A stretch of DNA of 64,000 nucleotides from Eledone cirrhosa (lineage: Eukaryota): contig OZ024742.1 of assembly GCA_964016885.1 (NCBI GenBank), positions 285,820,001 through 285,884,000 of the forward strand, written 5' to 3'. Numbering within the stretch: the stretch's first letter is position 1; the number at the start of each line of letters is the position of its first letter. Below the pieces are notes generated by a model. That model was not told where the DNA came from and searched no databases. It was given only the letters and a program-made list of their open reading frames with translations. Made by a program: the position numbers and the translations under genes. Shown piece by piece: positions 1,803 to 58,300 of the stretch.

Positions 1803-1953
1803 TAAAATAACAGATTAAAGTTTAAGCAAAGAATCGCTGCTTTCACCCTTAACGGGATCTTGTGCCTTTTATTTCGATAATCCGCGAAAAGCAGACAACA
1901 AGCAGGACAAATTTGGATTTAAAACCTATAATAACCCTCCGTGGAACCCAGCA

Positions 1954-3876
1954 TTGCTACCCTTCGAAAATCATGTCTTGGAACTCATTCGGAGTATCAA
2001 ATTTCGGAATAGGAGCAATTCCTTCCAGCAAGACCTGAAGAATAGAATTCGTTCTATTAAGGATTCGAACGCCGTGCACGTCCATTCCGACAAAACTGGC
2101 AACCTATATCAAGTGGAGCGCAGTACTTACCATCAACTACTACATAATGCTGTAACTAAGGATTACCGTAAAACTAATCGGTGTGTCATCAATGAAATCA
2201 ACGATGCTGGGTTTAAAATCACATCTGATCTCAACATCCTGGACCGGACCGAACCCCTGGACCCTATCTCTCCCCACTTTACCCTGAAGGACCACAAATC
2301 CAATTTTCCGAACAACCCCTCTATTCGGCTTATTAACCCTACGAAGTCCGATTTAGGTAGACTTAGTAAAACGATTCTTGATAGAATTATACTTGAAATT
2401 AGAAATTTGGCCCATCTCGCACTGTGGAACAATTCTTTCGCGGTGATTGATTGGTTCAACGGCATATGTAACAAGGAACATTGCCGTTTTATCCAATTCG
2501 ACATCAACAATTACTACTCCTCCATCACTTTACCACTTCTCCTTAGAGCTATCAATTTCGCTAAAACACTCACAGTGGTTAAGGATTTCGAAGTTGATGT
2601 CATCCTTAATGCCCGAAAGTCGGTGATTAATTTCGACGATTCTATTTGGATTAAAAAATCCAATAGTACCCCATTCGACGTGAGTATGGGCGCCAGTGAC
2701 TCTGCAGAGGTTACTGATCTTATTGGCCTTTTCCTTCTTTTCTCTATCAAGGACGAATTCCCCAACGCGGGCGGTGGTTCGTACCGTGACGATGGCCTTT
2801 TGACCATGACTAAGTGCGGACCTCGTGCTTGCGACAGATTCAGAAAAGAACTCACAGCCTTCTTTAAAGGCTTCAACCTCTCTATACAGGTTGAGGCCAA
2901 TCTCTCGGTCGTTAATTACCTCGACGTTACCCTCAATTTATTGAATGGGTTGCATTACCCGTATAGAAAGCCGAATGATACGCTTAATTACATAAGTAAG
3001 CATTCCAACCATCCTGCCAGCATAACCAAGAACCTGGTAAAAAACGTTTCGTTGAGGCTTTCCCGTCTTTCCACCAACGAGCGCATTTTCAACGACCATT
3101 CCACTTATTACAATGAAGCTCTTGCTCGAAGTGGATTTGTCGATAAGGTAGCATATACAGAGTACGAGAATAGACCTAGAAGAAATAGATCCCGTCGCAT
3201 TTGTTGGTTTAACCCACCATATAATATGGAGGTGGCCACACCATTAGCTAAGATCTTTCTTTCCCTTATTACGAAGCATTTTCCCCCTACACATAAATAT
3301 AGTAACATTTTTAATAGAAACACTATTAAAATTTCTTACTCAATGACTCCTAACCTTGCACATAACATCACAGCTTCAAATTTAGCTAAAATACCTAGCC
3401 GTAGGAACACGTGCAACCCTGTAGTTAGTACTAACTGTAATTGTAGGAATCGGGCTGATTGTCCCCTATCCGGGAAATGCCTCTCTAGTAACATTGTCTA
3501 CAAATGTAAGGTTGTAACACCCACGTCTCGTAGGGCCTACATAGGGTTAACCGCCAATAGTTTCAAGCAGCATCTTTACATGCATACCCATTCTTTTCGT
3601 TACCCTCTAAGAAGGAATATGACGTCACTTTCAGCTTATATCTGGAGTCTAAAAGACAACCACACCCAATATAAGTTACACTGGGAGATCCTAGCTAGGG
3701 CTAGATCGTATAACGGAAATAAAAGACCATGTGACCTCTGCGCCGCTGAGGCCCTGGAAATACTCTACGCCACAGACCACATCTTAAACAAAAAATCTGA
3801 GGCAATTTCGGCTTGTAAACATAAATTGCACAACACTTTCCTGTATTACAGCCCTACGTTATACCCTAACGGATAA
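1954..3876 (+). CDS. PLE reverse transcriptase plus GIY-YIG endonuclease (N-terminally truncated; frame open from ~1861)
   Basis: RT motifs FIQFDINNYYSSI, MGASDS, YRDDGL, YLDVT; CNCR..CPL.G.CL..IVY..YIGLT endonuclease. No native ATG. Confidence 0.88.
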   Translation: MLPFENHVLELIRSIKFRNRSNSFQQDLKNRIRSIKDSNAVHVHSDKTGNLYQVERSTYHQLLHNAVTKDYRKTNRCVINEINDAGFKITSDLNILDRTEPLDPISPHFTLKDHKSNFPNNPSIRLINPTKSDLGRLSKTILDRIILEIRNLAHLALWNNSFAVIDWFNGICNKEHCRFIQFDINNYYSSITLPLLLRAINFAKTLTVVKDFEVDVILNARKSVINFDDSIWIKKSNSTPFDVSMGASDSAEVTDLIGLFLLFSIKDEFPNAGGGSYRDDGLLTMTKCGPRACDRFRKELTAFFKGFNLSIQVEANLSVVNYLDVTLNLLNGLHYPYRKPNDTLNYISKHSNHPASITKNLVKNVSLRLSRLSTNERIFNDHSTYYNEALARSGFVDKVAYTEYENRPRRNRSRRICWFNPPYNMEVATPLAKIFLSLITKHFPPTHKYSNIFNRNTIKISYSMTPNLAHNITASNLAKIPSRRNTCNPVVSTNCNCRNRADCPLSGKCLSSNIVYKCKVVTPTSRRAYIGLTANSFKQHLYMHTHSFRYPLRRNMTSLSAYIWSLKDNHTQYKLHWEILARARSYNGNKRPCDLCAAEALEILYATDHILNKKSEAISACKHKLHNTFLYYSPTLYPNG

Positions 3877-10186: not shown

Positions 10187-10224
<38 letters not shown>

Positions 10225-10230
<6 letters not shown>

Positions 10231-10914
10231 GTGAGGTTTTTTTTACAAAATGAAAAATAACCGAGGTGTCCTACACGAGTGGAAGTATAAAGAAAAAGGG
10301 ATGAAATCGAAAATGCAACTGAAGTCTTATTTTTTAAAAAAATATATATATTTATTTGGTTCCTTTACCGGTTTCGCAGTTCTTCTGCTTTTCAAAAGGT
10401 GAGTTGAGATGGAGGGTCTGTGGTTTTTCTCACATCTGGTTGGTCTCTAAATGTTACTTGTTTTATATGGAAAAAGTGGCTCGAAAACCAGGTTTTTCGA
10501 GAAGTAATTTGATTGGTTTGTCAATAATTATAATAAATTTCGCGCCAGTTCGCGTTACAATAGTTCTTCAAATAAGAGAGGGGGGGGGGGGTTGTCACAG
10601 GTTGTTTTTTCATATATGAGTGTTTGAATTTCTTTTTACTTGAAAAAATGAGGCTCACGAAGGCTTTTTTTGGGTTGGTTATAAATGAAATTTGGCTGTC
10701 ACGTGAACAAGTTTTCATTACATTTTTGCGCCCTTATTTGGAAAACTATTCTGTAGTCTTTATAGTGAATGTTATGACAATGGAGAGATAGTGGTCAAGG
10801 GAAAAGGGATTGGAAGAAATGTTCTGGTTCAGTGAATATGGCCAGCTGTCAGAGTTCAGGTGTCAGAGTTCAGATTTTCTATTGAGACTGAAGATATGTG
10901 TTTATTTGTGTGCT

Positions 10915-10947
<33 letters not shown>

Positions 10948-11205
10948 ATGTGTGTATTGGAAGATGATTCTATTAGTAGAGATGGGGGAGGGAGTTGTGT
11001 GTGTGTGTATATGGGTGTTATGTGTGTGTGTGCGAGTATGTTAGATAGAGAGAATATATATTTTGTGTGTGTGTATATATATATGTGTGTAGGAAAGTGG
11101 TTCTATTAGTAGAAATGGGGAGGGTGTTGTAGGTGTGGGGTTTGTTATGTGTGTGTATGGGTGTTATGTGTGTGGGAGTATGGTTAGCATGTTAAGATGA
11201 AGAGA

Positions 11206-11236
<31 letters not shown>

Positions 11237-11906
11237 GTGTGTGTGTATGTGTGTGTGTAGGAAAATGATTCCTTTAGTAGGAATATTTTTGAATGAACAT
11301 ATTTTCCTGACTTTTTCGTGTTTGCTGTTGTATTGCCAGTGCAAACGTATGTTTAAGGTTTATTTAGTTCGGGTTTTTATTTTCTAAAGTAGAAGGTGTT
11401 ATGTGTGTGTGTGTATGTCATATTGTGGTGTTGACATAATGTATATTAAACCTTATTTAATGTTGGTCTATATTTTTGAATAATCATATTTTCCTTATTT
11501 ATTCGCATTTGTTCTGTTGTATTGTTAGCGCAAAGGTAAAATGGGAAGACTTGGAATTTGGGTGTCTTATTACTTGCGCAAATGTCTAGATGTGCACTTA
11601 GTGGTATCTGTCTCGTGGTTGGATCTCGTAATTGTTGGCGATGAACTGTCATTCTGTTTCTGAGTGTGAGTTTAGTTTGTCCTATATAATCTTCATTGCA
11701 TCCTTTACATTTAATGGCATAAATTAGATTTTTTGATGAGCAAGTGAAGTGATTTTTTACAGTAAAATTTTGTCCTGATTTAAATGTATACGTGTTGTCT
11801 TCAATGAGGTGAGTGCAGGTTCCACAATTAGAGCGACCACATTTTTTGATACTTGGTTGTGGGTTTGTGGTAGGTAATTTGGCATTGGTGAGTAATGTTT
11901 TCAGTG

Positions 11907-11910
<4 letters not shown>
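10225..11910 (-). mobile_element. Penelope-like element 3' fragment (GIY-YIG, 3' UTR, HHR); possibly Neptune-like (tentative)
   Basis: ORF 11446..11910: CGRSNCGTC, FTCSSKNLIYAIKCKGC...YIGQT..LRNRMTVH. HHR at 10362-10399. (TA)n flanks. Confidence 0.85.
10362..10399 (-). ncRNA. Minimal type I hammerhead ribozyme, U3-A8 core variant
   Basis: Minus strand: CCTT-TTGAAAA-GCAG aagaa CTGC-GAAA-CCGG-TA-AAGG. Confidence 0.8.
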
Positions 11911-11936
<26 letters not shown>

Positions 11937-11940
<4 letters not shown>

Positions 11941-12492
11941 CAAGGTTTAGCAAATAAGATAAAGTTTCAAAATAAATTTAAAAAAATTAACTGTACTTAC
12001 TATGGTTACCTTTACCGAGTCGGTTTCGATTCTCAAAAATAAACGGAGTCCATACTGCCTTCGTTGCAAAGAAAGAATCTCGTCAGAAGGATCTTTTCAT
12101 TCGGAGAATATAAAATTCTCGAATTCAAATTACGAACTGGCGCTATTCAAAATTGTTCCCGAGATGAGAGTAAATGAAGTGGAATCAATTTTTTCAAGGG
12201 CCGAGTGTAAAGATAAAGGCAGAGGCAGAGAGGTCAGATGGCTACTGCTATAACTAGCAGCAGTCAGAACGACCAAATTTTTCTCAAAATAGAGGAGGAT
12301 AGTAATAATAGGATATGTGTTCCTACACGAACAAGGCGCTAAGGGACACATGTATTGTCCAACCATATGCCAATGTGGTTCAATGGCAGGTTAATAAATT
12401 AACGAGCCAGAACATATATAATCAACGTTTAGCAAATAAGATAAAGTTTCAAGATAAATTTTAAAAAATTAACTGTACTTACTATGGTTACC

Positions 12493-12496
<4 letters not shown>
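11937..12496 (-). mobile_element. ORF-less HHR-bearing unit (482-nt period plus 76-nt terminal redundancy), retrozyme/pLTR-like
   Basis: 11938-12014 repeats at 12420-12496. Related copies at ~16998-17165 and ~54694-54845. (TA)n flanks. Confidence 0.75.
12009..12090 (-). ncRNA. Type I hammerhead ribozyme, canonical core
   Basis: CCTT-CTGACGA-GATTCT...AGAATC-GAAA-CCGACTCGG-TA-AAGG. The first stem II pairs covary with the copy at 54694 (GAG/CTC versus GAT/ATC). Confidence 0.85.
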
Positions 12497-12583
<87 letters not shown>

Positions 12584-12708
12584 GTATATATATATACATA
12601 TATATATATATATACATAATATATATATATAAAAAGAGCGGGGCAAGCGGTTATCAAACAATTTCCTAAATAAATTAAAAAACGATTTAAATAATCACCT
12701 GTTCTATT

Positions 12709-12788
12709 GCTGTTACCGACGGTTTCACCATTCCAAATATTGGAAATCCAGAGAATTTCCAATGGAAAGAAATGGATCTTCAGACAGC
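12709..12788 (-). ncRNA. Type I hammerhead ribozyme (U10.1·U11.1 variant), copy 1
   Basis: GCTGT-CTGAAGA-T-CCATT...AATGG-T-GAAA-CCGTCGG-TA-ACAGC. Confidence 0.85.
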
Positions 12789-13175
12789 TTATTTCCATAC
12801 TATAAGGCTGCCAGCCTTACTGAAAGTAAATATTTCGCTTCCTGTCCAACGCATGCGGTCAAGCCGTTAAAATGACACACACGCAAAATCAGGTCGCAGA
12901 TAATAGCTGTTTATTATAAACGTGTTGATACTGCCACTAAAATTAGTAGCATTATTCAACGTTTTGTTCTCTACATAAGGAGAAAAATTATAAAAGTGGA
13001 TGAATACCTCAACAGGCACTAAGTACTTGTAGAAATATGCAAGGTGTTTATAATATTTGTGGTTCGATGGTACTAATTTGAGATACCAGAACAATATAAA
13101 AAGAGCGGAGCAAGCGGTTATCAAACAATTTCCTAAATAAATTAAAAAACGATTTAAATAATCACCTGTTCTATT

Positions 13176-13255
13176 GCTGTTACCGACGGTTTCACCATTC
13201 CAAATATTGGAAATCCAGAGAATTTCCAATGGAAAGAAATGGATCTTCAGACAGC
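13176..13255 (-). ncRNA. Type I hammerhead ribozyme (U10.1·U11.1 variant), copy 2
   Basis: Same motif as 12709-12788. Confidence 0.85.
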
Positions 13256-13480
13256 TTATTTCCATACTATAAGGTTGCCAGCCTTACAGAAAGTAAATAT
13301 TTCACTTCCTGCCCAACGCATGCTGTCAAGCCGTTAAAATGACACACACGCAAAATCAGGTCGCAGATAATAGCTGTTTATTATAAACGTGTTGATACTG
13401 CCTCTAAAATTAGTAGCATTATTCAACGTTTTGTTCTCTACATAAGGAGAAAAATTATAATATATATGTATATATATATA

Positions 13481-15347
13481 TTTCGTTTCTGAATTTGTTT
13501 AGCAAGATTCTTTATCTGAAAACGTGTGTTGAAACCGATATTGTTATGCTTTGGGAGGGTCATGTTGCCAATAAGAAACACACGCACCAGTTGTTTTCAC
13601 TTCAATTTATTATAAATTAAATTTATAAATTTAGGAATTTATAAATTTTCGGTTGGTTGGTTGGTTCCACAACCAGGCGATTCTTCATATATTGTCAAAG
13701 TTCTTTCGTCACACATTCTGTGACCTCTTCAGTGACTGGGGATTCTTTGCTTTGTTTTTTTTTTTGTGCCTCTCCTGTGTTCTGTCCTACGCCATCTTGT
13801 TTTTGTGTGTGTTGTGTGCTTAGTTTGCGCATGTGTTACATCCGGGTGTCTGAGTGTGTTTATATTTGTTTATTTACATGTTACTGGTTGGTTGTTTGTT
13901 CTATGTGTGTGTGTGTTTTCATTTTGTCCTTAATTGTAAGTTGTGATGTTGCTGTTCCATTCATGTTTTCTATTTAATTTTGGTTGGAGTTCATTTATGT
14001 TTATTGCCTCTGAGATTTGTCTAAACATTGCGTCTTTTTTGTGTGTAGATTCTATTTTTATTTCTATGTTCTCTAATTTACCCTTATGTTCTATTTTAGC
14101 ATGTTGGTGGAGTACAGATGATTCTTTACTATCTTGAAGCTCTCGCCAGTGTTCATTTATCCGTTCCCCTATATTACGAGCTGTCTCACCTATGTACACT
14201 ATATTCTTATCTCTACATTGTCCTTCAGTACATCTTATGCTATATAGTACATTTCTAGTTTTACGGTTAATATGGGGCTTAGTTTACAGATTATACATTT
14301 CTTATCTATACAGGGAGGTCTTTGAAAAGGGTGTGTATTGTTAATAAGTGTTTTTATGGAGGTACCTGGTCTTGCTACTATCTTAATATTGAGTTTATGT
14401 TTATCTAGGGCCCTTCTAAATTTGTAAGCTAATTCACCTCTAGGGGTTGTATCGATGAACATTACACTCTGGTATTTATTGCTATCATACCATGAGTTTA
14501 TTCTATTAACCTCATTCCTAGTTCTTTCTATTCTATTCCAAAATTTGCTCCTTTACAAGGGGCAGGTCCCATTTGTATCATTATTTACCATTTTTTCCCA
14601 TTTGGTTTTCTGATTTTTTTCTCTCTGATTGTAACCAGAGAACTGCATACGGTGGATGAAGTGTTGTATGTGTCTCTCTAGTTCTTTGGGGTTGCACATG
14701 CGGGACACGTTTCTCATCACCCGTACCAAATCCGCAATCAGTATGTTGATTTTCGTATGGTACGAAACAGCTTGGTTTCGGTGGATCAGATATTTGGAAG
14801 TCATGGGTTTGGCATAATGGGAATGGAGGATTTGTTTTTTGTTATTAATGGTATCTAACCAGAGCTCTGTGTCTAGTACAGGTAATCGATGGTTGGGGTG
14901 TTTGCTTGGGTAGTCTATAGTAACTCTAATACTCTGGTGGATGGAGTTAGCTATTTGCTGGATGCTTTCCATGGTGTTTTTCTCTAATTTCTGACTGTTC
15001 TCTCGTGGGGGTGTTTTTACTACGATGTTTATATCATCAACGTAGCGGGAGTACATTATCAGGGTTAAGAGGTTGCTGTCTTCTAATTGTTCTTTAAATT
15101 TAAGTTTAAGTCTATTGTCCCACCATACCTTGAATAGGTTAGCTATGTCACCTGCAATGCTAACACCAATGGCTGCTCCCTCCTCTTGGGCATATGTTTT
15201 TTCATTAAATTTGAACATATGTTCCTTAAGGGTTAATTTTATACTGGCCGCCACCGCATGTGCAATCATGTTCTTTAGTTCATCGCGGTTTTCGGGGGTC
15301 CGTATGGCTCTGGTCCACCCGTTCCATCTATCTGTGTGGGTTTTCTC
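13481..15347 (-). mobile_element. Penelope-like element, 5'-truncated and frameshifted; same family as 1-1637
   Basis: RT motifs QEEGAAIG and YSRYVDD; ORF pieces 14553-15347, 14235-14462 and 13930-14199 (YIGETARNIGERINEH); 3' repeat with HHR. Confidence 0.9.
13694..13736 (-). ncRNA. Minimal type I hammerhead ribozyme motif
   Basis: GTCA-CTGAAGA-g-GTCAC agaatgt GTGAC-GAAA-gaac-TT-TGAC. Confidence 0.75.
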
Positions 15348-15364
15348 TATATATATACATACAT

Positions 15365-15395
<31 letters not shown>

Positions 15396-15398
15396 CAC

Positions 15399-15445
<47 letters not shown>

Positions 15446-15453
15446 TTAGTACA

Positions 15454-15521
<68 letters not shown>

Positions 15522-15522
15522 A

Positions 15523-15602
15523 TATAGAGTGTTCCCAAAAATGTATACACACTTTGATAAGGATGCTGTTGAAGTGTCTATACATCTTTGGGGACACCCT
15601 GT
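15523..15602. mobile_element. ~80-bp MITE with Tc1/mariner-like terminal inverted repeats
   Basis: agagtgttcccaaaaatgtatacacactt pairs with aagtgtctatacatctttggggacaccctg; half copy at ~16075-16115. Confidence 0.6.
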
Positions 15603-15639
15603 CTGTGTGTATATATATATACTGTATATATATATATAA

Positions 15640-15761
<122 letters not shown>

Positions 15762-16110
15762 ATGTGTATATATATACATGTGTGTGTATATGTGTGTTTT
15801 AATCATTTGTACCAAATCAGTTTTGTCGCATATTTTGTAAGTCGCCTATTTAAGAATATTAAGAAATAATTTGAACTCTTCGCTAAAGTACATATTAATA
15901 TAAAGCAAATAAATAAAACACATTAATATCAATTTAATTCGAGATGTTTGATTAATATATTTCAATATCTAATTAGATATTAAAAGCACACATATTTCTA
16001 CATTGTGACACACTCTTCTAGTAATATAAACGTTACGTTTGTCTTACCTGTATCTTCAAACTATATATATATTAGAATGCTGTTGATGTGTGTATACATT
16101 TTTAGGTAAC

Positions 16111-16197
<87 letters not shown>

Positions 16198-16280
16198 GTA
16201 TGTATATATATACTTATATATATATGCATACATATATATATATACATATATATGTATATATGTATATATATATATATATA

Positions 16281-16535
16281 TTGTTATGCTTATGGAGGCC
16301 ATGTTGCCAATAAGAAACACACGCACCAGTTGCTTTCACTCCAATTTATTATAAATTAAATTTATAAATTTAAGAATTTATAAATTTCTGGATGGTTGGT
16401 TGGTTCCACAACCAGACGATTGTTCATATATTGTCAAAGTTCTTTCGTCACACATTCTGTAACCTCTTCAATGACTGGGGATTCTTTTCTTTGTTTTTGT
16501 GCCTCTCCTTTGTTCTGTCCTAAGCCATCTTGTTT
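16281..16535 (-). mobile_element. Solo PLE terminal-repeat fragment with mutated HHR (16433-16475)
   Basis: Highly similar to ~13540-13803; core reads TTGAAGA without a compensating G8A change. Confidence 0.8.
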
Positions 16536-16574
16536 TGAAATATATTAATCAAACACACAAAAACAAGATGACGT

Positions 16575-16960: not shown

Positions 16961-16997
<37 letters not shown>

Positions 16998-17000
<3 letters not shown>

Positions 17001-17163
17001 CAAGGTTTAGCAAATAAGAAAAAGTTTCAAAATAAATTAAAAAAAATTAACTTTACTTACTACGGTTACCTTTACGGCATCCGTTGCAAAGAAAAACTCT
17101 CGTCAGAAGGATCTTTTCAGTCGGAGAATATAAAATTCCCGAGTTCAATTTACGAACTTTACG

Positions 17164-20072: not shown

Positions 20073-20776
20073 ATAATAATAAAATTGAAGACTAAAATCC
20101 AGAGAGGGCTCGATAAGGAAAATATATATTAAATATATAAGAACCGAAGAGCAAATATTTATTAAAATAACAGATTAAAATTTAAAATTGAAGACTAAAA
20201 TCCAGAGAGGGCTCGATAAGGAAAATATATATTAAATATATAAGAACCGAAGAGCAAATATTTATTAAAATAACAGATTAAAGTTTAAAATTGAAGACTA
20301 AAATCCAGAGAGGGCTCGATAAGGAAAATATATATTAAATATATAAGAACCGAAGAGCAAATATTTATTAAAATAACAGATTAAAGTTTAAAATTGAAGA
20401 CTAAAATCCAGAGAGGGCTCGATAAGGAAAATATATATTAAATATATAAGAACCGAAGAGCAAATATTTATTAAAATAACAGATTAAAATTTAAAATTGA
20501 AGACTAAAATCCAGAGAGGGCTCGATAAGGAAAATATATATTAAATATATAAGAACCGAAGAGCAAATATTTATTAAAATAACAGATTAAAGTTTAAAAT
20601 TGAAGACTAAAATCCAGAGAGGGCTCGATAAGGAAAATATATATTAAATATATAAGAACCGAAGAGCAAATATTTATTAAAATAACAGATTAAAGTTTAA
20701 AATTGAAGACTAAAATCCAGAGAGGGCTCGATAAGGAAAATATATATTAAATATATAAGAACCGAAGAGCAAATAT
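20070..20776 (-). repeat. Tandem array of a 103-bp unit (6 full plus 1 partial) derived from the 3' end of the PLE at 1795-4962
   Basis: Unit starts at 20081, 20184, 20287, 20390, 20493, 20596, 20699; reverse complement of ~4848-4950. Confidence 0.95.
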
Positions 20777-20790
20777 ATATATATATATAT

Positions 20791-31483: not shown

Positions 31484-34400
31484 CAAACACCACCACCAAA
31501 GCAACACCACCCTCAAACAACCACCATCTACACAACACCAGCACCACCAAAGCAGCACTACCCTCAAACAACCACCATCTACACAACACCACCATAACCA
31601 AAGCAACACCACCCTCAAACAACTACCATCTACACAACACCACCAAGGCAACACCACCCTCAAACAACTACCATCTACACAACACCACCACCACCAAAAC
31701 AGCACTACCCTCAAACAACTACCATCTACACAACACCAGAACCACCAAAGCAACACCACCCTCAAACAACCACCATCTACACAACACCACCACCACCAAA
31801 GCAACACCACCCTCAAACAACTACCATCTACACAACACCAGCACCACCAAAGCAACACCACCCTCAAACAACTACCATCTACACAACACCACCACCACCA
31901 AAGCAACACCACCCTCAAACAACCACCATCTACACAACACCACCACCACCAAAGCAACACCACCCTCGAACAACTACCATCTACACAACACCAGCACCAC
32001 CAAAGCAACACCACCCTCAAACAACTACCATCTACACAACACCACCACCACCAAAGCAACACCACCCTCAAACAACCACCATCTACACAACACCACCACC
32101 ACCAAAGCAACACCACCCTCAAACAACTACCATCAACACAACACCACCACCACCAAAACAGCACCACCCTCAAACAACTACTATCTACACAACACCACCA
32201 CCACCAAAGCAACACCACCCTCAAACAACTACCACCTACACAACACCACCACCACCAAAACAGCACTACCCTCAAACAACCACCATCTACACAACACCAC
32301 CACCACCAAAGCAACACCACCCTCAAACAACTACCACCTACACAACAGCACCACCACCAAAACAGCACTACCCTCAAACAACCACCATCTACACAACACC
32401 ACCACCACCAAAGCAACACCACCCTCAAACAACTACCACCTACACAACACCACCACCACCAAAACAGCACCACCCTCAAACAACTACTATCTACACAACA
32501 CCACCACCACCAAAGCAACACCACCCTCAAACAACTACCACCTACACAACACCACCACCACCAAAACAGCACTACCTTCAAACAACCACCATCTACACAA
32601 CACCACCACCACCAAAGCAACACCACCCTCAAACAACTACCACCTACACAACACCACCACCACCAAAACAGCACCACCCTCAAACAACTACTATCTACAC
32701 AACACCACCACCACCAAAGCAACACCACCCTCAAACAACTACCACCTACACAACACCACCACCACCAAAACAGCACTACCCTCAAACAACCACCATCTAC
32801 ACAACACCACCACCACCAAAGCAACACCACCCTCAAACAACTACCATCTACACAACACCACCACCACCAAAACAGCACTACCCTCAAACAACCACCATCT
32901 ACACAACACCACTACCACCAAAGCAACACCACCCTCAAACAACTACCATCTACACAACACCACCACCACCAAAACAGCACCACCCTCAAACAACCACCAT
33001 CTACACAACACCACCACCACCAAAGCAACACCACCCTCAAACAACTACCATCTACACAACACCACCACCACCAAAACAGCACTACCCTCAAACAACCACC
33101 ATCTACACAACACCACTACCACCAAAGCAACACCACCCTCAAACAACCACCATCTACACAACACCACCACCACCAAAACAACACCACCCTCAAACAACTA
33201 CCATCTACACAACACCACCACCACCAAAGCAACACCACCCTCAAACAACCACCATCTACACAACACCACCACCACCAAAGCAACACCACCCTCAAACAAC
33301 TACCATCTACACAACACCACCACCACCAAAACAGCACTACCCTCAAACAACCACCATCTACACAACACCACTACCACCAAAGCAACACCACCCTCAAACA
33401 ACTACCACCTACACAACACCACCACCACCAAAACAGCACTACCCTCAAACAACTACCATCTACACAACACCACCACCACCAAAGCAACACCACCCTCAAA
33501 CAACCACCATCTACACAACACCACCACCACCAAAGCAACACCACCCTCAAACAACCACCATCTACACAACACCACCACCACCAAAACAGCACTACCCTCA
33601 AACAACTACCATCTACACAACACCACCACCACCAAAGCAACACCACCCTCAAACAACTACCATCTACACAACACCACCAAAGCAACACCACCCTCAAACA
33701 ACTACCATCTACACAACACCTCCCTCAAACAACTACCATCTACACAACACCACCACCACCAAAGCAACACCACCCTCAAACAACTACCATCTACACAACA
33801 CCACCACCACCAAAGCAACACCACCCTCAAACAACTACCATCTACACAACACCACCAAAGCAACACCACCCTCAAACAACCACCATCTACACAACACCAC
33901 CACCACCAAAACAACACCACCCTCAAACAAATACCATCTACACAACACCACCACCACCAAAACAGCACTACCCTCAAACAACTACCATCAACACAACACC
34001 ACCACCACCAAAGCAACACCACCCTCAAACAACTACCATCTACACAACACCACCACCACCACAACAGCACTACCCTCAAACAATTACCATCTACACAACA
34101 CCACCACCACCAAAGCAACACCACCCTCAAACAACCATCATCTACACAACACCACCACCACCAAAGCAACACCACCCTCAAACACCACCATCTACACAAC
34201 ACCACCACCACCAAAGCAACACCACCCTCAAACAACTACCATCTACACAACACCACCACCACCAAAGCAACACCACCCTCAAACAACTACCATCTACACA
34301 ACACCACCACCACCAAAACAGCACTACCCTCAAACAATTACCATCTACACAACACCACCACCACCAAAGCAACACCACCCTCAAACAACCATCATCTACA

Positions 34401-37400
34401 CAACACCACCACCACCAAAGCAACACCACCCTCAAACAACCACCATCTACACAACACCACCACCACCAAAGCAACACCACCCTCAAACAACTACCATCTA
34501 CACAACACCACCACCACCAAAGCAACACCACCCTCAAACAACCACCATCTACACAACACCACCACCACCAAAACAACACCACCCTCAAACAACTACCATC
34601 TACACAACACCACCACCACCAAAGCAACACCACCCTCAAACAACCACCATCTACACAACACCACCACCACCAAAGCAACACCACCCTCAAACAACTACCA
34701 TCTACACAACACCACCATCACCAAAGCAACACCACCCTGAAACAACCACCATCTACACAACACCACCACCACCAAAGCAACACCACCCTCAAACAACTAC
34801 CATCTACACAACACCACCACCACCAAAGCAACACCACCCTCAAACAACTACCATCTACACGACACCACCACCACCAAAGCAACACCACCCTCAAACAACC
34901 ACCATCTACACAACACCACCACCACCAAAGCAACACCACCCTCAAACAACTACCATCTACACAACACCACCACCACCAAAACAACACCACCCTCAAACAA
35001 CTACCATCTACACAACACCACCACCACCAAAACAACACCACCCTCAAACAACTACCATCTACACAACACCACCACCACCAAAACAACACCACCCTCAAAC
35101 AACTACCATCTACACAACACCACCAAAACAGCACCACCCTCAAACAACTACCATCTACACAACACCACCAAAACAACACCACCCTCAAACAACTACCATC
35201 TACACAACACCACCAAAACAACACCACCCTCAAACAACTTCCATCTACACAACACCACCACCACCAAAACAACACCACCCTCAAACAACTACCATCTACA
35301 CAACACCACCACCACCAAAACAACACCACCCTCAAACAACTACCATCTACACAACACCACCACCACCAAAGCAACACCACCCTCAAACAACTACCATCAA
35401 CACAACACCACCACCACCAAAACAGCACCACCCTCAAACAACTACCATCTACACAACACCACCACCACCAAAGCAACACCACCCTCAAACAACTACTATC
35501 TACACAACACCACCACCACCAAAGCAACACCACCCTCAAACAACTACCATCTACACAACACCACCACCACCAAAGCAACACCACCCTCAAACAACTACCA
35601 TCTACACAACACCACCACCACCAAAGCAACACCACCCTCAAACAACTACCATCTACACAACACCACCACCACCAAAGCAACACCACCCTCAAACAACCAC
35701 CATCTACACAACACCACCACCACCAAAACAGCACCACCCTCAAACAACCACCATCTACACAACACCACCACCACCAAAACAGCACTACCCTCAAACAACT
35801 ACCATCTACACAACACCACCACCACCAAAGCAACACCACCCTCAAACAACTACCATCTACACAACACCACCAAAGCAACACCACCCTCAAAGAACTACCA
35901 TCTACACAACACCTCCCTCAAACAACTACCATCTACACAACACCACCACCACCAAAGCAACACCACCCTCAAACAACTACCATCTACACAACACCACCAC
36001 CACCAAAGCAACACCACCCTCAAACAACTACCATCTACACAACACCACCAAAGCAACACCACCCTCAAACAACCACCATCTACACAACACCACCACCACC
36101 AAAGCAACACCACCCTCAAACAAATACCATCTACACAACACCACCACCACCAAAACAGCACTACCCTCAAACAACTACCATCAACACAACACCACCACCA
36201 CCAAAGCAACACCACCCTCAAACAACTACCATCTACACAACACCACCACCACCAAAACAGCACTACCCTCAAACAATTACCATCTACACAACACCACCAC
36301 CACCAAAGCAACACCACCCTCAAACAACCATCATCTACACAACACCACCACCACCAAAGCAACACCACCCTCAAACACCACCATCTACACAACACCACCA
36401 CCACCAAAGCAACACCACCCTCAAACAACTACCATCTACACAACACCACCACCACCAAAGCAACACCACCCTCAAACAACTACCATCTACACAACACCAC
36501 CACCACCAAAACAGCACTACCCTCAAACAATTACCATCTACACAACACCACCACCACCAAAGCAACACCACCCTCAAACAACCATCATCTACACAACACC
36601 ACCACCACCAAAGCAACACCACCCTCAAACAACCACCATCTACACAACACGACCACCACCAAAGCAACACCACCCTCAAACAACTACCATCTACACAACA
36701 CCACCACCACCAAAGCAACACCACCCTCAAACAACCACCATCTACACAACACCACCACCACCAAAACAACACCACCCTCAAACAACTACCATCTACACAA
36801 CACCACCACCACCAAAGCAACACCACCCTCAAACAACCACTATCTACACAACACCACCACCACCAAAGCAACACCACCCTCAAACAACTACCATCTACAC
36901 AGCACCACCATCACCAAAGCAACACCACCCTCAAACAACCACCATCTACACAACACCACCACCACCAAAGCAACACCACCCTCAAACAACTACCATCTAC
37001 ACAACACCACCACCACCAAAGCAACACCACCCTCAAACAACTACCATCTACACAACACCACCACCACCAAAGCAACACCACCCTCAAACAACCACCATCT
37101 ACACAACACCACCACCACCAAAGCAACACCACCCTCAAACAACTACCATCTACACAACACCACCACCACCAAAACAACACCACCCTCAAACAACTACCAT
37201 CTACACAACACCACCACCACCAAAACAACACCACCCTCAAACAACTACCATCTACACAACACCACCACCACCAAAACAACACCACCCTCAAACAACTACC
37301 ATCTACACAACACCACCAAAACAGCACCACCCTCAAACAACTACCATCTACACAACACCACCACCACCAAAACAGCACCACCCTCAAACAACTACCATCT

Positions 37401-40400
37401 ACACAACACCACCACCACCAAAGCAACACCACCCTCAAACAACTACCATCTACACAACACCACCACCACCAAAACAGCACCACCCTCAAACAACTACCAT
37501 CTACACAACACCACCACCACCAAAGCAACACCACCCTCAAACAACTACTATCTACACAACACCACCACCACCAAAGCAACACCACCCTCAAACAACTACC
37601 ATCTACACAACACCACCACCACCAAAGCAACACCACCCTCAAACAACTACCATCTACACAACACCACCACCACCAAAGCAACACCACCCTCAAACAACTA
37701 CCATCTACACAACACCACCACCACCAAAGCAACACCACCCTCAAACAACCACCATCTACACAACACCACCACCACCAAAACAGCACCACCCTCAATCAAC
37801 TACCATCTACACAACACCACCACCACCAAAGCAACACCACCCTCAAACAACTACCATCTACACAACACCACCACCACCAAAACAGCATCACCCTCAAACA
37901 ACTACCATCTACACAACACCACCACCACCAAAGCAACACCACCCTCAAACAACTACTATCTACACAACACCACCACCACCAAAGCAACACCACCCTCAAA
38001 CAACTACCATCTACACAACACCACCACCACCAAAGCAACACCACCCTCAAACAACTACCATCTACACAACACCACCACCACCAAAGCAACACCACCCTCA
38101 AACAACTACCATCTACACAACACCACCACCACCAAAACAGCACCACCCTCAAACAACTACTATCTACACAACACCACCACCACCAAAACAGCACCACCCT
38201 CAAACAACTACCATCTACACAACACCACCACCACCAAAGCAACACCACCCTCAAACAACTACCATCTACACAACACCACCACCACCAAAACAGCACCACC
38301 CTCAAACAACTACCATCTACACAACACCACCACCACCAAAGCAACACCACCCTCAAACAACTACTATCTACACAACACCACCACCACCAAAGCAACACCA
38401 CCCTCAAACAACTACCATCTACACAACACCACCACCACCAAAGCAACACCACCCTCAAACAACTACCATCTACACAACACCACCACCACCAAAACAGCAC
38501 CACCCTCAAACAACTACTATCTACACAACACCACCACCACCAAAGCAACACCACCCTCAAACAACTACCATCTACACAACACCACCACCACCAAAACAGC
38601 ACCACCCTCAAACAACCACCATCTACACAACACCACCACCACCAAAACAGCACCACCCTCAAACAACCACCATCTACACAACACCACCACCACCAAAACA
38701 GCACCACCCTCAAACAACCACCATCTACACAACACCACCACCACCAAAACAGCACCACCCTCAAACAACCACCATCTACACAACACCACCACCACCAAAA
38801 CAGCACCACCCTCAAACAACCACCATCTACACAACACCACCACCACCAAAGCAACACCACCCTCAAACAACTACCATCTACACAACACCACCACCAAAAC
38901 AGCACCACCCTCAAACAACCACCATCTACACAACACCACCACCACCAAAGCAACACCACCCTCAAACAACCACCATCTACACAACACCACCACCACCAAA
39001 ACAGCACCACCCTCAAACAACTACCATCTACACAACACCACCACCACCAAAGCAACACCACCCTCAAACAACCACCATCTACACAACACCACCACCACCA
39101 CCAAAGCAACACCACCCTCAAACAACTACCATCAACACAACACCACCACCACCAAAACAGCACCACCCTCAAACAACTACTATCTACACAACACCACCAC
39201 CACCAAAGCAACACCACCCTCAAACAACCACCATCTACACAACACCACCACCACCAAAACAGCACCACCCTCAAACAACCACCATCTACACAACACCACC
39301 ACCACCAAAGCAACACCACCCTCAAACAACTACCATCTACACAACACCACCACCACCAAAGCAACACCACCCTCAAACAACTACCATCTATACAACACCA
39401 CCACCACCAAAACAGCACCACCCTCAAACAACCACCATCTACACAACACCACCACCACCAAAACAGCACCACCCTCAAACAACTACCATCTACACAACAC
39501 CACCACCACCAAAGCAACACCACCCTCAAACAACTACCATCTACACAACACCACCACCACCAAAACAGCACCACCCTCAAACAACCACCATCTACACAAC
39601 ACCACCACCACCAAAACAGCACCACCCTCAAACAACTACCATCTACACAACACCACCACCACCAAAGCAACACCACCCTCAAACAACCACCATCTACACA
39701 ACACCACCACCACCAAAGCAGCACCACCCTCAAACAACTACCATCTACACAACACCACCACCACCAAAACAGCACCACCCTCAAACAACTACCATCTACA
39801 CAACACCACCACCACCAAAGCAACACCACCCTCAAACAACCACCATCTACACAACACCACCACCACCAAAACAACACCACCCTCAAACAACTACCATCTA
39901 CACAAGACCACCACCACCAAAGCAACACCACCCTCAAACAACTACCATCTACACGACACCACCACCACCAAAACAGCACCACCCTCAAACAACTACCATC
40001 TACACAACACCACCACCACCAAAGCAACACCACCCTCAAACAACCACCATCTACACAACACCACCACCACCAAAACAACACCACCCTCAAACAACTACCA
40101 TCTACACAACACCAGCACCACCAAAGCAGCACCACCCTCAAACAACCACCATCTACACAACACCACCACCACCAAAGCAGCACCACCCTCAAACAACTAC
40201 CATCTACACAACACCACCACCACCAAAGCAGCACCACCCTCAAACAACTACCATCTACACAACACCACCACCACCAAAGCAACACCACCCTCAAACAACT
40301 ACCATCTACACAACACTACCCTCAAACAACTACCATCTACACAACACCACCACCACCAAAGCAACACCACCCTCAAACAACTACCATCTACACAACACCA

Positions 40401-42372
40401 CCACCACCAAAGCAGCACCACCCTCAAACAACTACCATCTACACAACACCACCACCACCAAAGCAACACCACCCTCAAACAACTACCATCTACACAACAC
40501 CACCCTCAAACAACTACCATCTACACAACACCACCACCACCAAAGCAACACCACCCTCAAACAACTACCATCTACACAACACCACCACCACCAAAGCAAC
40601 ACCACCCTCAAACAACTACCATCTACACAACACCACCCTCAAACAACTACCATCTACACAACACCACCCTCAAACAACTACCATCTACACAACACCACCC
40701 TCAAACAACTACCATCTACACAACACCACCACCACCAAAGCAACACCACCCTCAAACAACTACCATCTACACAACACCACCCTCAAACAACTACCATCTA
40801 CACAACACCACCCTCAAACAACTACCATCTACACAACACCACCACCACCAAAGCAACACCACCCTCAAACAACTACCATCTACACAACACCACCCTCAAA
40901 CAACTACCATCTACACAACACCACCCTCAAACAACTACCATCTACACAACACCACCACCACCAAAGCAACACCACCCTCAAACAACCACCATCTACACAA
41001 CACCACCACCACCAAAACAGCACCACCCTCAAACAACTACCATCTACACAACACCACCACCACCAAAGCAACACCACCCTCAAACAACCACCATCTACAC
41101 AACACCACCACCACCAAAACAGCACTACCCTCAAACAACTACCATCTACACAACACCACCACCACCAAAGCAACACCACCCTCAAACAATTACCATCTAC
41201 ACAACACCACCACCACCAAAGCAACACCACCCTCAAACAACTACCATCTACACAACACCACCACCACCAAAACAGCACCACCCTCACACAACTACCATCT
41301 ACACAACACCACCACCACCAAAGCAACACCACCCTCAAACAACCACCATCTACACAACACCACCACCACCAAAGCAACACCACCCTCAAACAACTACCAT
41401 CTACACAACACCACCACCACCAAAACAGCACCACCCTCAAACAACTACCATCTACACAACACCACCACCACCAAAACAGCACCACCCTCGAACAACTACC
41501 ATCTACACAACACCAGCACCACCAAAGCAACACCACCCTCAAACAACCACCATCTACACAACACCACCACCACCAAAGCAACACCACCCTCAAACAACTA
41601 CCATCTACACAACACCACCACCACCAAAACAGCACCACCCTCAAACAACTACCATCTACACAACACCACCACCACCAAAACAGCACCACCCTCAAACAAC
41701 TACCATCTACACAACACCACCACCACCAAAACAGCACCACCCTCAAACAACTACCATCTACACAACACCACCACCACCAAAGCAACACCACCCTCAAACA
41801 ACTACCATCTACACAACACCACCACCACCAAAGCAACACCACCCTCAAACAACTACCATCTACACAACACCACCACCACCAAAGCAACACCACCCTCAAA
41901 CAACCACCATCTACACAACACCACCACCACCAAAACAGCACCACCCTCAAACAACTACCATCTACACAACACCACCACCACCAAAACAGCACCACCCTCA
42001 AACAACCACCATCTACACAACACCACCACCACCAAAGCAACACCACCCTCAAACAACTACCATCTACACAACACCACCACCACCAAAGCAACACCACCCT
42101 CAAACAACTACCATCTACACAACACCACCACCACCAAAGCAACACCACCCTCAAACAACTACCATCTACACAACACCACCACCACCAAAGCAACACCACC
42201 CCCAAACAACCACCATCTACACAACACCACCACCACCAAAGCAACACCACCCTCAAACAACTACTATCTACACAACACCACCACCACCAAAGCAACACCA
42301 CCCTCAAACAACCACCATCTACACAACACCACCACCACCAAAACAGCACCACCCTCAAACAACCACCACCAC
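31484..42372. repeat. ~10.9-kb tandem array of a 51-bp unit (caaacaactaccatctacacaacaccaccaccaccaaagcaacaccaccct), roughly 215-220 units, with 45-, 48- and 31-bp variants
   Basis: Directly visible; embedded in degenerate (ACC/CAC)n sequence on both sides; extreme C/A strand bias. Confidence 0.97.
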
Positions 42373-55352: not shown

Positions 55353-58300
55353 TTTTCTCTTTCTCTTAATTTCGAGTATATTTTTTTTGACCGGCCACCT
55401 TCCTGGTGGCAAGGTTGTAAAAGAAAAAAAATTGTCATCCCTTGAATCGCAAGAATGTTTTGCATATTTTGAAGGTGCTAGCTATCGCAGCCATTTGTAG
55501 ACTATGAATTAGGGAGCTGCGCTTTTTGTCCGCAAATCCAAGTTCGGTCATACTTTGGTCCAAGCGGGTTGGTATATAACCCGTAGCACCAATAATGATG
55601 GGTATGAAGCTAAAGGTGTATCTTGGATACTGGATTTGTAAGCTCCTCATCAATGGTCCGTAGATGTCCTCCTTCTCCTGTATTTTTCTGACAACGTTTA
55701 CATCAAGTGGGCAGCTGATCTCCACAACAGAACACGTTTTCAATGTGTGGTCCCAAACTACAATATCAGGCCGGTTGTGCTTTAATTTGGTGGCAGTTTT
55801 TATTTTCAGGTTCCACCAGTATTCCTTAGTGCCATCTGTCTCAATATATTCTTCCTCGTTTGTTGTTAATTTTGTTTTCCGAAGTGCGTTCCAGATAGTT
55901 CTAGCTATCCCATCGTGTCTCATGGGGAGGTAGTAGCGAGATGACATTCTTTCGCAGCTGGCAACAATGTGGCTTACATCCTCGATCTTTGTTTTACATA
56001 GCCTACATTTATTGTCAGCTGCTGGCCCTCCTCTTTTGTGCAGCAGATATTTGGTAGGGAGTTCTTGTTCCTGTATTGCATAGAGATATCCCTCAAGGTG
56101 TGATGTCATAAACTTGTCGGAACTCCATGCCAGGCTTTTTGAGTGGTTTATCCCCTCTATGGTCTGTGTTTTACGCCTCAAGTATCCATGCACAACTTTC
56201 TCTGTAAATTGGTCAATTTTTTTTTCTTGTTTGAACATTGAATAGGATCTTCCGATTTCTCTGGGTGAGAGATTTATATCAGGCTTTATTCCATATCTCT
56301 CCTCCAGATCAGTCGCTATTCTAATGATATTTCTTTTTTCATGCTCATAAACCTGAGCAAGATGGTCGCCAACCTTTTTCCTCTGTTGAAGGTGTTGCTT
56401 CAGTGTTACTATCCGGGTCTCATATGTTGTTAATATTGATTTTAGACCCCGGCCACCTTCCTTGCGTGAGAAGTATAGCCTATCCACATCACCATTGATG
56501 TTAAAGTTCCCAGTAACACTGAGAAGTTTTCGAGTTCTAACATCCATCTCACTTAGTTCTTGCAATGACCAGTTCAGTAGGCCAAATGTTGGCGTTAGAA
56601 TTGGCACAGCATAGGTATTGTGGGCAATGTATTTGTTGTATGCTGACAGTTCTGATGACCATATTTTTTTTACTCATCTGAGGTATTCAGTTCTGGTTCT
56701 CTCCTTATTTATGGGTCCATCATATCTGACATTCTCATCCTGTCCAAGATATCTGTAGTTGTCACCTGACTGCAGAGGTTGTATTGTCAGGCCGTTCATA
56801 TCTAGATTTCTAGAGGAGGGCACAGCTCTTCCACGTTTTACTGCCAAATATGCACACTTGGACTCACCAAATTTCATTTTGATGTCGGTTGAAAATTGTG
56901 TAATGAGGTCCAATTGTTTCTTGATGTCATTGATATTTGGCCCATACAACTTCAGGTCATCAACAAAGAAAAGATGGGAGATACTTCTGGGCCCACTTCT
57001 TTGTCCACCTTGTTTCCTGAGTAGGTAAGATAGTGGATTCAGTGAGAGAACGAAGAGTAGTACTGACAAGCTATCACCCTGAAAGATGCCCTTCTGGTAA
57101 TGTATCCTATCAGTCTTAACCTGCTCCTTCTCACCTCTAAGGATCAAATTGGTGTACCAGTTCTTGGTCAGGCGTTCAACAGCAGCTACTAATGGTTGTG
57201 GGACTTTAGCTAACTGTAAAGCCTTAATAATCCACCCATGAGGTACACTATCAAATGCTTTTTGATAGTCCAGCCACACGACAGTCATGTTTCTGCGATT
57301 CTTTGTTGTTTTTTCCTGAATCATTTTGTTAGTTAGTAGGTGATCTATGCAACCCCACACCTCCCTCTTTCCACCAGCTTGCTCAGGTGTTATGATGTTG
57401 TTGGTAGCACAGTGATCCTGTAAGAACAGGTTAAGGCACCCAGTATATAATTTATACATGATGTTTTGGCAGGCAATTGGGCGGTAATTTTTAGCAAGGG
57501 TGGTTTGGCTATTTTTGGGAATGAGGAGAGTAGTGGCAGTTGATAACCATCTGGGCAGTTCTTGTGTGCCCTTAATGGTTTCTGTAAACAGCCGTATGAG
57601 ATCTTGCCGATAGAAAGTGAAATTCTTCAACCAGTATCCTGTAATGAGGTCTGGGCCTGGCGATTTCCTATTCGACATTTTCTGTAGAGCTGTTTCCAGT
57701 ATTGACCCATCTATGTCATATTGTTTTGTCTGGACATGTTGGCAGTAGTCCTGTTCCAGTTGTTTTAGCCAATTAGCTTGTCTGTTGAATCCGTCATCCG
57801 TTTCCCATACAGATCTCCAGTAGTTCTCAACCTGTTCTTTTGAAGGGGTGTCGTTTACAGGGATTGAGCTTTTGCCACCGACGCTGCGATAAACTGATTT
57901 AGGATCTCTGGCAAACAATCTATTTAGCACTTGTCGTTTATGGGCTGTTGACTTATATTTTAGTCTTTCTGTTGTAGCTGTGAGTTGTTGTTTCAACTGG
58001 TGTAATTTGGAGTTCAAAGTTTTAAATTTGGTATCTCCAAATCGTCTCTCTAACTTTTTCTTTAGGTCTTCCTGGTGTCGTGTGAAGTTTCTCTCTATGT
58101 TGCATTTCATAACGACTGCGATGTGTGAGATACTTCGTCTCAGGGACAAAATTTTGGTTTTTAAATTTCGCATCCACGCTGGTTCAGGCTTTCTGTTTGT
58201 ATCTTGATTGCGTGGTTTTAGATGTGTGTTATATGATAGCAATGTGACAGCTGAAACATATAACAAAACATTGAGCGTTTCAAATGTCGTTTCTACACCT

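What the first reader, a model, noticed from the sequence alone, without database searches (positions are those of the whole stretch)
12628..13460. Retrozyme-like dimer: 467-nt ORF-less unit bounded by two intact hammerheads
Seen: ~1.8 near-identical head-to-tail units in (TA)n, with intact type I HHRs at 12709-12788 and 13176-13255 on the minus strand and no coding capacity. Established: metazoan non-LTR retrozymes are tandem HHR repeats that yield monomeric and circular RNAs, proposed to be mobilised by PLEs. Inference: transcription would release a 467-nt monomer able to circularise. Both insertion ends coincide with internal TATA runs, as expected for a permuted template annealing to (TA)n.
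Basis: partly seen in the sequence, partly recalled or inferred. Interest (0 to 1): 0.78.

Follow-up and report, generated by a model that had tools for sequence, protein, structure and literature searches.

The report
Ribozyme repeat copied by Penelope-like retrotransposons
A 467-base repeat carrying a predicted self-cutting hammerhead RNA is scattered through this animal genome's TA microsatellites, and its copies end at the two fixed points that Penelope-like jumping genes leave, so it is likely a 'retrozyme' that borrows their copying enzyme, possibly by way of a small RNA circle.

Summary
Observation confirmed: 1.79 head-to-tail 467-nt units (98% alike) in (TA)n, with two type I hammerheads. 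It is one copy of a dispersed family without RT or endonuclease (834-1,929 first-look candidates by query), not a terminal repeat of an ORF-bearing Penelope-like element (PLE). At 50 sites, 69 of 73 arms end 87 or ~192 nt past the ribozyme cut, 66 of those in TA runs. In 18 of 22 inverted insertions each arm uses a different end. This is the PLE 'tail' (two RT start sites), also seen in autonomous Neptune-type PLEs here. Copies run through the cut site (27 of 30) and reach 3.4 units; tandem units mostly share one haplotype, which fits a circular template, but a few are mosaics. A homologous 482-nt sister family sits next door. Cleavage, expression and circles are untested; helix III is weak and helix II starts with U-U. 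No parent PLE was found. Verdict: new member of a known kind (non-LTR retrozyme), with unusually clear genomic evidence of PLE mobilisation. The scan had no look-alike sequence, but noted a similar pattern in another genome.

The parts
12627..13460 (-). Whole insertion, 834 nt = 1.79 units (M188-467, M1-467, M1-87)
12714..13180 (-). 467-nt monomer between the two predicted cut sites; folds well as a line (z -4.6) and as a circle (z -5.3)
13176..13255 (-). Type I hammerhead 1 (long helix II, U-U at 10.1-11.1, self-complementary helix III, GUA cut at 13181|13180)
12709..12788 (-). Type I hammerhead 2, identical to 1; cut at 12714|12713
12627..12632 (-). 3' end of this insertion = inferred RT start site 1 (M82-87, UUAUAU), joined to (TA)n
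   Evidence: 35 of 73 arms end here; M82 reads A in 17 of 35 terminal and 0 of 57 internal copies
13094..13099 (-). Internal copy of start site 1 (M82-87)
12989..13093 (-). 105-nt 'tail' (M88-192) between the two start sites; begins with TGTTCTGG...CCATYGAACCAC, shared with the sister family
12989..12993 (-). Internal copy of start site 2 (M188-192, TTATA)
   Evidence: 34 of 73 arms end here
13456..13460 (-). 5' end of this insertion: truncation on the TATA word of M188-192, joined to a TA run
12497..12626 (.). (TA)n target, left side
13461..13481 (.). TA run, right side; it is the 3' flank of the neighbouring autonomous-type PLE
12867..13265 (-). 132-codon ATG frame crossing hammerhead 1; no evidence that it is a gene
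11939..12496 (-). Neighbouring copy of a homologous sister family (482-nt unit, hammerhead about 12009-12090, ends at cut+74 and cut+190)

Best explanation
This is one copy of a dispersed 467-nt hammerhead repeat family without reverse transcriptase, whose copies end at two fixed internal sites in TA microsatellites; it is likely a non-LTR retrozyme copied in trans by a Neptune-type Penelope-like element, with the RNA predicted to be cut to a monomer and likely closed to a circle that would serve as the template. Steps: (1, inferred, ~0.7) a tandem transcript is cut by the two hammerheads, probably as a double hammerhead, because helix III is weak alone but self-complementary; (2, inferred from other retrozymes) the 467-nt monomer is ligated to a circle, in which the lone ribozyme would cut poorly; (3, inferred, ~0.9) a PLE endonuclease nicks (TA)n, often on both strands; (4, pattern shown, chemistry inferred) the freed TA ends pair with UAUA words 87 and 192 nt past the cut and prime reverse transcription there, one site per strand; (5, shown) copying runs through the cut junction and past one unit, up to 3.4 units, then stops at variable points, giving 5'-truncated tandems and head-to-head inversions. 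The circle as template (about 0.55-0.6) is the weakest link.
For: Family: 1,929 / 1,578 / 1,240 / 834 first-look candidates for four queries, 40 scored each (not copy numbers); 50 distinct sites from 90 loci. Ends: 35 arms at M85-88, 34 at M189-196, 4 elsewhere; 66 of the 69 are followed by TA. Of 22 head-to-head sites, 18 pair one end of each kind, 1 has the same end twice and 3 have an odd end; 18 of 19 is about 4e-5 one-sided, worked by hand. Three further two-arm sites fit. Priming scar: M82 is T in 57 of 57 internal copies, A in 17 of 35 terminal ones. Internal control: an autonomous PLE of this genome (775-aa frames, RT, C-x4-C-x2-C linker, GIY-YIG) also ends in TA at two places, cut+77-89 or cut+139-152 (42 of 47 hammerheads scored, loci partly overlapping). 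In vitro a lizard PLE extends both nicked strands from two internal sites that bound the tail, one 111-118 nt into the ORF with the cut at 26, i.e. 85-92 nt past the cut by my arithmetic (PMC11167929). Cut site crossed by >=20 nt in 27 of 30 hits of a query lying wholly 3' of it; 1 stops within 5 nt. Units of one insertion disagree at 15 of 177 (tandem) and 10 of 92 (inverted) family-polymorphic columns against 39.5% between sites. Five changes seen at one site only are shared by both tandem units, about 0.5 expected. Tandem units differ by 2.4% (2.0-2.8) and inverted arms by 1.9% (1.2-2.6), so tandems are no younger than the insertion. The sister family is homologous over the whole unit (score 257 vs 177+-11, max 204 of 100 shuffles), with different but paired helices I-III.
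Against: No cleavage, expression or circle is shown. In the lizard PLE, ribozyme cutting was not needed and uncut RNA was the main template. Only 1 of 9 frog retrozyme dimers cut in vitro (bioRxiv 10.64898/2026.07.22.740005). U-U at the base of helix II and a weak helix III (p about 0.035 in the circle); cross-pairing of the two helices III in the folded dimer has p 0.001, although the isolated duplex is -11.3 against +0.4 kcal/mol for the hairpin. Some insertions are mosaics of common family haplotypes (L022 4 columns, L080 3, L016; 22 tandem columns discordant for common alleles), which one circle cannot give. Only 8 of 50 sites hold two intact cores in tandem. No autonomous PLE with a related terminal repeat was found among 82 PLE-bearing loci, so the partner is assigned by target and pattern only. 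All samples are best-scoring copies, biased to young ones.
Confidence: 0.55

Rival explanations
1. Same PLE-driven copying from the same two start sites, but the template is an uncut linear tandem transcript (or several RNAs with template switches). The hammerhead is a slow or protein-assisted relic of a PLE terminal repeat, and circles, if made, are by-products.
For: Uncut RNA was the main template for a lizard PLE in vitro and ribozyme mutants inserted normally. Mosaic insertions L022, L080, L016 and single discordant tail columns at six more sites. Weak helix III, U-U in helix II. Crossing of the cut site fits this as well as a circle.
Against: Five site-private changes shared by both tandem units, three of them in L028, are not expected from a source array whose units mutate separately. 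Repeated 5' truncation should shorten linear sources, yet arms reach 3.4 units. The core and stems are kept in two families about 60% alike.
Confidence: 0.33
2. Copies insert as little more than one unit and the tandems arise later by local unequal crossover or gene conversion, the route proposed for vertebrate retrozymes in bioRxiv 10.64898/2026.07.22.740005.
For: Would also give shared private changes between neighbouring units. L016 shows a patchy pattern across its 3.4 units. Most arms are under 1.5 units.
Against: Tandem units are at least as diverged (2.4%) as inverted arms (1.9%), which must date from insertion (intervals overlap). Even a 1.2-unit copy needs a template that crosses the unit junction.
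Confidence: 0.07
3. The unit is the pseudo-LTR of an ORF-bearing PLE that was not sampled, and the dimer is a truncated PLE end.
For: The insertion pattern is exactly that of PLE ends; the window copy lies just downstream of a PLE on the same strand; flanks were read only to 1.5 kb.
Against: 0 of 30 hits of the far 5' part (M196-351) run into an ORF; 26 run into the previous unit. PLE protein hits occur in 5 of 50 flanks; four lie on the 3' side, and the upstream one (this window) ends with its own hammerhead, tail and TA run. The same PLE end flanks L011 in the opposite orientation. Two sister families share the whole closed unit.
Confidence: 0.05

Closest known systems
Metazoan non-LTR retrozymes (Cervera and de la Pena 2020, PMC7229834, parts 2-4 of 6 read; Li, Clavereau and Pollet, bioRxiv 10.64898/2026.07.22.740005, parts 1-4 of 5 read)
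   Same: Tandem units without RT, each with a type I hammerhead; low GC; well-folded predicted circle; PLEs in the same genome. U-U at the base of helix II occurs in axolotl HHR_Amex2, which cuts weakly alone and better as a dimer.
   Different: 467 nt is above the 170-400 nt of the 2020 paper but inside the 51-972 bp of the preprint. Copies are short, dispersed, 5'-truncated and often inverted rather than long arrays. Helix II is 50 nt. Fixed paired 3' ends in (TA)n are not described in the text I read. RNA products are not shown here.
EN+ Penelope-like elements, Neptune/Nematis type (Craig et al. 2021, PMC8557442, passages read) and Poseidon of Anolis (Frangieh et al. 2024, PMC11167929, parts 1-2 of 4 read)
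   Same: Partial tandems, inverted 5'-truncated arm, a tail at one end only, two internal RT start sites, the first about 85-90 nt past the hammerhead cut, (TA)n or AT-rich targets.
   Different: No RT or endonuclease. The tail is 105 nt, not 30-40. The start sites here carry TATA that can pair with the target and leave a scar at M82, whereas the lizard start site was not homologous to the cut DNA.
Non-autonomous PLEs such as MRC1 of Chlamydomonas (passage in PMC8557442)
   Same: ORF-less, multicopy head-to-tail insertions made by PLE machinery.
   Different: Those resemble an autonomous family at the 3' end and mostly lack hammerheads; here no matching autonomous family was found and every unit has a hammerhead.

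Membership tests
non-LTR retrozyme | Type I hammerhead in each repeat unit | tested here: met
   Core and helices I-III in both units; core letters kept in 64-78 of 65-78 family segments; stems differ but pair in the sister family. No Rfam hit.
non-LTR retrozyme | At least two consecutive head-to-tail units with complete hammerheads | tested here: met
   Window locus; 8 of 50 sites; longest arm 3.37 units.
non-LTR retrozyme | No RT or other protein gene in the unit | tested here: met
   A 132-codon frame exists but has no Pfam hit over cut-off, best Atlas score 0.79, synonymous share 7 of 27 shared and 63 of 288 total variants vs 233 of 1188 possible, absent in the sister family.
non-LTR retrozyme | Small, low-GC unit predicted to fold as a self-paired circle | tested here: met
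   467 nt; GC 0.33 for 12001-14000; circular fold -118.7 kcal/mol, z -5.3 against 60 shuffles. Longer than 170-400 nt, inside 51-972 bp.
non-LTR retrozyme | No LTR, primer-binding site or polypurine tract | not tested
   No PBS or PPT search was run; the copy ends are not LTR-like.
non-LTR retrozyme | Self-cleavage of the transcript | not testable with these tools
   Needs in vitro transcription.
non-LTR retrozyme | Monomeric linear and circular RNAs in tissue | not testable with these tools
   No RNA run was available to lay on the unit.
PLE pseudo-LTR (part of an autonomous element) | Unit joined directly to an RT-EN ORF or its 3' UTR | tested here: not met
   0 of 30 hits of M196-351; 5 of 50 flanks hold PLE protein hits, none attached; flanks 1.5 kb only.
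PLE-mobilised element | Two alternative 3' ends bounding a tail, tail at one end of inverted insertions | tested here: met
   69 of 73 arms; 18 of 22 inverted sites.
PLE-mobilised element | Variable 5' truncation, inverted arm, (TA)n target | tested here: met
   27 single-arm 5' ends spread over M19-436; 22 of 50 sites inverted; 66 of 69 standard ends in TA.
PLE-mobilised element | Sequence likeness to the terminal repeat of an autonomous partner | tested here: inconclusive
   No match beyond short AT-rich words in 82 PLE-bearing loci; only a few of the genome's PLE families were sampled.

The most novel reading that the evidence does not exclude
A lineage of 470-540-nt hammerhead RNA circles parasitises Neptune-type PLEs: the PLE enzyme is primed by both nicked (TA)n strands, each pairing with its own UAUA site on the circle, and copies it by rolling-circle reverse transcription. 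The insertions would then be a genomic record of the rolling-circle step long proposed for retrozymes, and a minimal substrate that shows how PLE tandems and tails arise.
Probability: 0.4. Interest if true: 0.68.

Novelty: new member of a known kind. Interest (0 to 1): 0.45.

Why it matters
That PLEs move animal retrozymes is so far argued from co-occurrence, shared hammerheads and terminal-repeat phylogeny; the 2026 preprint says the mechanism remains to be elucidated and proposes local amplification. Here the copies themselves carry the PLE insertion signature, down to which start site each strand used and a priming scar, in a young family with an intact Neptune-type ORF family in the same genome. 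That gives a 467-nt substrate and a candidate enzyme for testing circle against linear template. The kind of element is known, so the surprise is moderate. Seven paper searches showed no paper on this family or on tails in retrozymes; subscription papers and the supplements of the papers read were not seen and may bear on this.

Tried and rejected
Rfam: no hammerhead at gathering score in the window or at E<=10 in 11800-13900. Expression: no RNA holder listed; the three runs of unknown kind from one sample were laid and add nothing independent. Coding role of the 132-codon frame: rejected. Parent PLE: searched through two window endonuclease fragments and Pfam GIY-YIG, 10 long stretches and local BLAST; none matched. 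The youngest autonomous family differs by 0.3% among best hits, younger than these copies (about 1.2% each), so it is not shown to be the partner. A cleaved linear monomer as sole template: rejected, since 5' ends do not pile up at the cut. MAFFT alignment of seven long-helix-II hammerheads did not align the cores, so no pair count was made; stems were compared by eye. Double-hammerhead pairing was not recovered by folding the dimer. Target-site duplications could not be read in TA runs. Rows left out: L059 and L086 and columns M82, M188; L086 and the same columns; L086 (two same-strand arms) is not among the 22 inverted sites. No look-alike among the scan's earlier findings by sequence.

Full report
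Observation. Window 12627-13460 holds 1.79 head-to-tail copies of a 467-nt unit; the overlapping 367 nt differ at 7 places. It sits between TA runs. A motif scan finds identical type I hammerheads on the minus strand at 13176-13255 and 12709-12788, with predicted cuts 467 nt apart. Rfam does not detect them, probably because helix II is 50 nt long (inference). I number the monomer M1-M467 from the cut. The core is nearly invariant across family segments, and U-U at 10.1-11.1 is fixed, so it is no lesion of this copy. An axolotl retrozyme hammerhead has the same U-U and cuts 22% alone, better as a dimer (PMC7229834). Helices I and II are predicted at 0.78-0.92 in the circle, helix III at about 0.035. 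Helix III is self-complementary: -11.3 kcal/mol as a duplex, +0.4 as a hairpin, but folding the dimer does not recover the cross-pairing. The monomer folds better than shuffles, z -4.6 linear and -5.3 circular. A 132-codon frame crosses the hammerhead; 1 of 1000 shuffles matches it, but nothing supports a gene.

Family. The genome is 3.0 Gb; I take it for an octopus-like animal from a SINE motif recalled from memory, which I did not test. Four queries gave 1,929, 1,578, 1,240 and 834 first-look candidates, 40 scored each. The 90 loci of the first three collapse to 50 sites, all best-scoring and so biased to young copies. The unit is closed on itself: of 30 hits of M196-351, 26 run on into the previous unit, 4 stop at a TA run or inversion joint, none enters an ORF. 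PLE protein hits lie in 5 of 50 flanks, none attached; in the window the upstream PLE ends with its own hammerhead, tail and TA run, and the same PLE end flanks L011 the other way round. Eight of 50 sites have two intact cores in tandem; the longest arm is 3.37 units.

Insertion pattern. Of 73 arms, 35 end at M85-88 and 34 at M189-196; 66 of these 69 continue in TA. 5' ends are scattered (M19-436 in 27 single-arm sites; 15 have a TA-like 5' flank). Of 22 head-to-head sites, 18 use one end of each kind, one uses the same end twice and three have an odd end. M82 is T in 57 of 57 internal copies but A in 17 of 35 terminal ones: the target's TA sequence replaces the template there, as expected if the nicked TA strand pairs with UUAUAU and primes. 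The window copy ends at M87; its other end, M188, is a truncation on a TATA word. [quoted passage not shown] This is the PLE tail. A purified lizard PLE extends both nicked strands from two internal sites that bound the tail (PMC11167929); the tail is often at one end only. Differences: the tail is 105 nt instead of 30-40, and the start sites here can pair with the target.

Template. Copies cross the cut: 27 of 30 hits of M1-87 continue 20 nt or more upstream, 1 stops within 5 nt. So the template is a circle or an uncut tandem, not a cut linear monomer. For a circle: units of one insertion agree at family-polymorphic columns (15 of 177 and 10 of 92 discordant, about half of these at the M82 scar, against 39.5% between sites); five site-private changes are shared by both tandem units against about 0.5 expected; tandem units (173 of 7,345, 2.4%) are no less diverged than inverted arms (61 of 3,270, 1.9%), so tandems date from insertion (L059 and L086 left out). 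Against one circle for all: L022, L080 and L016 are mosaics of common haplotypes, mostly in the tail of M192-ended arms; and the lizard enzyme used uncut RNA and did not need the ribozyme. I put the circle at 0.55, the uncut tandem at 0.33.

Relatives. The neighbour at 11939-12496 is a copy of a second family: 482-nt unit, 2,700 candidates, tandems and inversions, ends at cut+74 and cut+190. It aligns with M over the whole unit (257 vs 177+-11), keeps a motif at the start of the tail, and has other but paired helices (helix I CCUU/AAGG, II GAUUCU/AGAAUC, III ACCG/CGGU). A third unit of about 540 nt with the same tail motif lies in L101. So the ORF-less unit is an old lineage, not a one-off. 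No autonomous PLE with a related terminal repeat turned up in 82 PLE-bearing loci.

Comparison. It works like, and meets every testable sequence criterion of, a non-LTR retrozyme; cleavage and circles were not testable. The 2020 paper proposes circle-templated tandem cDNA made by PLE enzymes; the 2026 preprint derives retrozymes from PLE terminal repeats, proposes local amplification, samples no molluscs, and saw cleavage in 1 of 9 dimers. Seven searches gave no paper on this family or on tails in retrozymes; supplements were not read. The scan's notes hold no look-alike sequence but a similar TA-targeted tandem pattern in another genome (unchecked).

Verdict. Real, correctly read, a new member of a known kind. 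Its value is the clear PLE signature and a ready test of the rolling-circle step. Interest 0.45.

Noticed in passing
window 11939-12496 (-); partial copy near 16970-17158: Second hammerhead repeat family, 482-nt unit, homologous to the finding's unit, with a 116-nt tail and a paired 10.1-11.1 position.
   Followed up: partly
window about 10215-11909 (-): 5'-truncated copy of a very young autonomous PLE family (775-aa frames, 0.3% apart among best hits). Its hammerhead core reads UUGAAAA, i.e. U3-A8 in place of C3-G8; UUGAUAA cores occur in other families (L147, L155, L179).
   Followed up: partly
window 13482 to about 16550 (-): Older, broken PLE (RT and GIY-YIG pieces split by TA insertions) with terminal repeats at 13558-13803 and 16297-16536, a hammerhead near 13732 and two 3' ends about 60 nt apart.
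   Followed up: partly
window 10215-16550: Four hammerhead-bearing elements (two PLEs, two retrozyme-like families) are nested in TA runs and all point the same way; one transcript could read through all of them.
   Followed up: no
L101:2434-2547 (-), L060:2945-3058 (+), L150:2948-3061 (-), L147:2579-2692 (-), L059:2394-2507 (-): Further long-helix-II type I hammerheads, each with a palindromic helix III; L101 shows a period of about 540 nt and the shared tail motif.
   Followed up: partly
L022, L080, L009, L040, L046, L056, L059, L065: In arms ending at M192 the terminal tail sometimes carries another subfamily's alleles than the internal unit; possible template switch after priming.
   Followed up: partly
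window 31488-42368: 11-kb array of a 51-nt unit, open in all three plus-strand frames (up to 3,691 codons; e.g. TTTKATPPSNNHHLHN repeats); satellite or mucin-like exon.
   Followed up: no
window 1819-3873 (+) and 56677-58959 (-): Open frames of 685 and 761 codons that look like retroelement proteins by eye; not searched.
   Followed up: no
window 20080-20780: 6.8 copies of a 103-nt unit at 99% identity.
   Followed up: no
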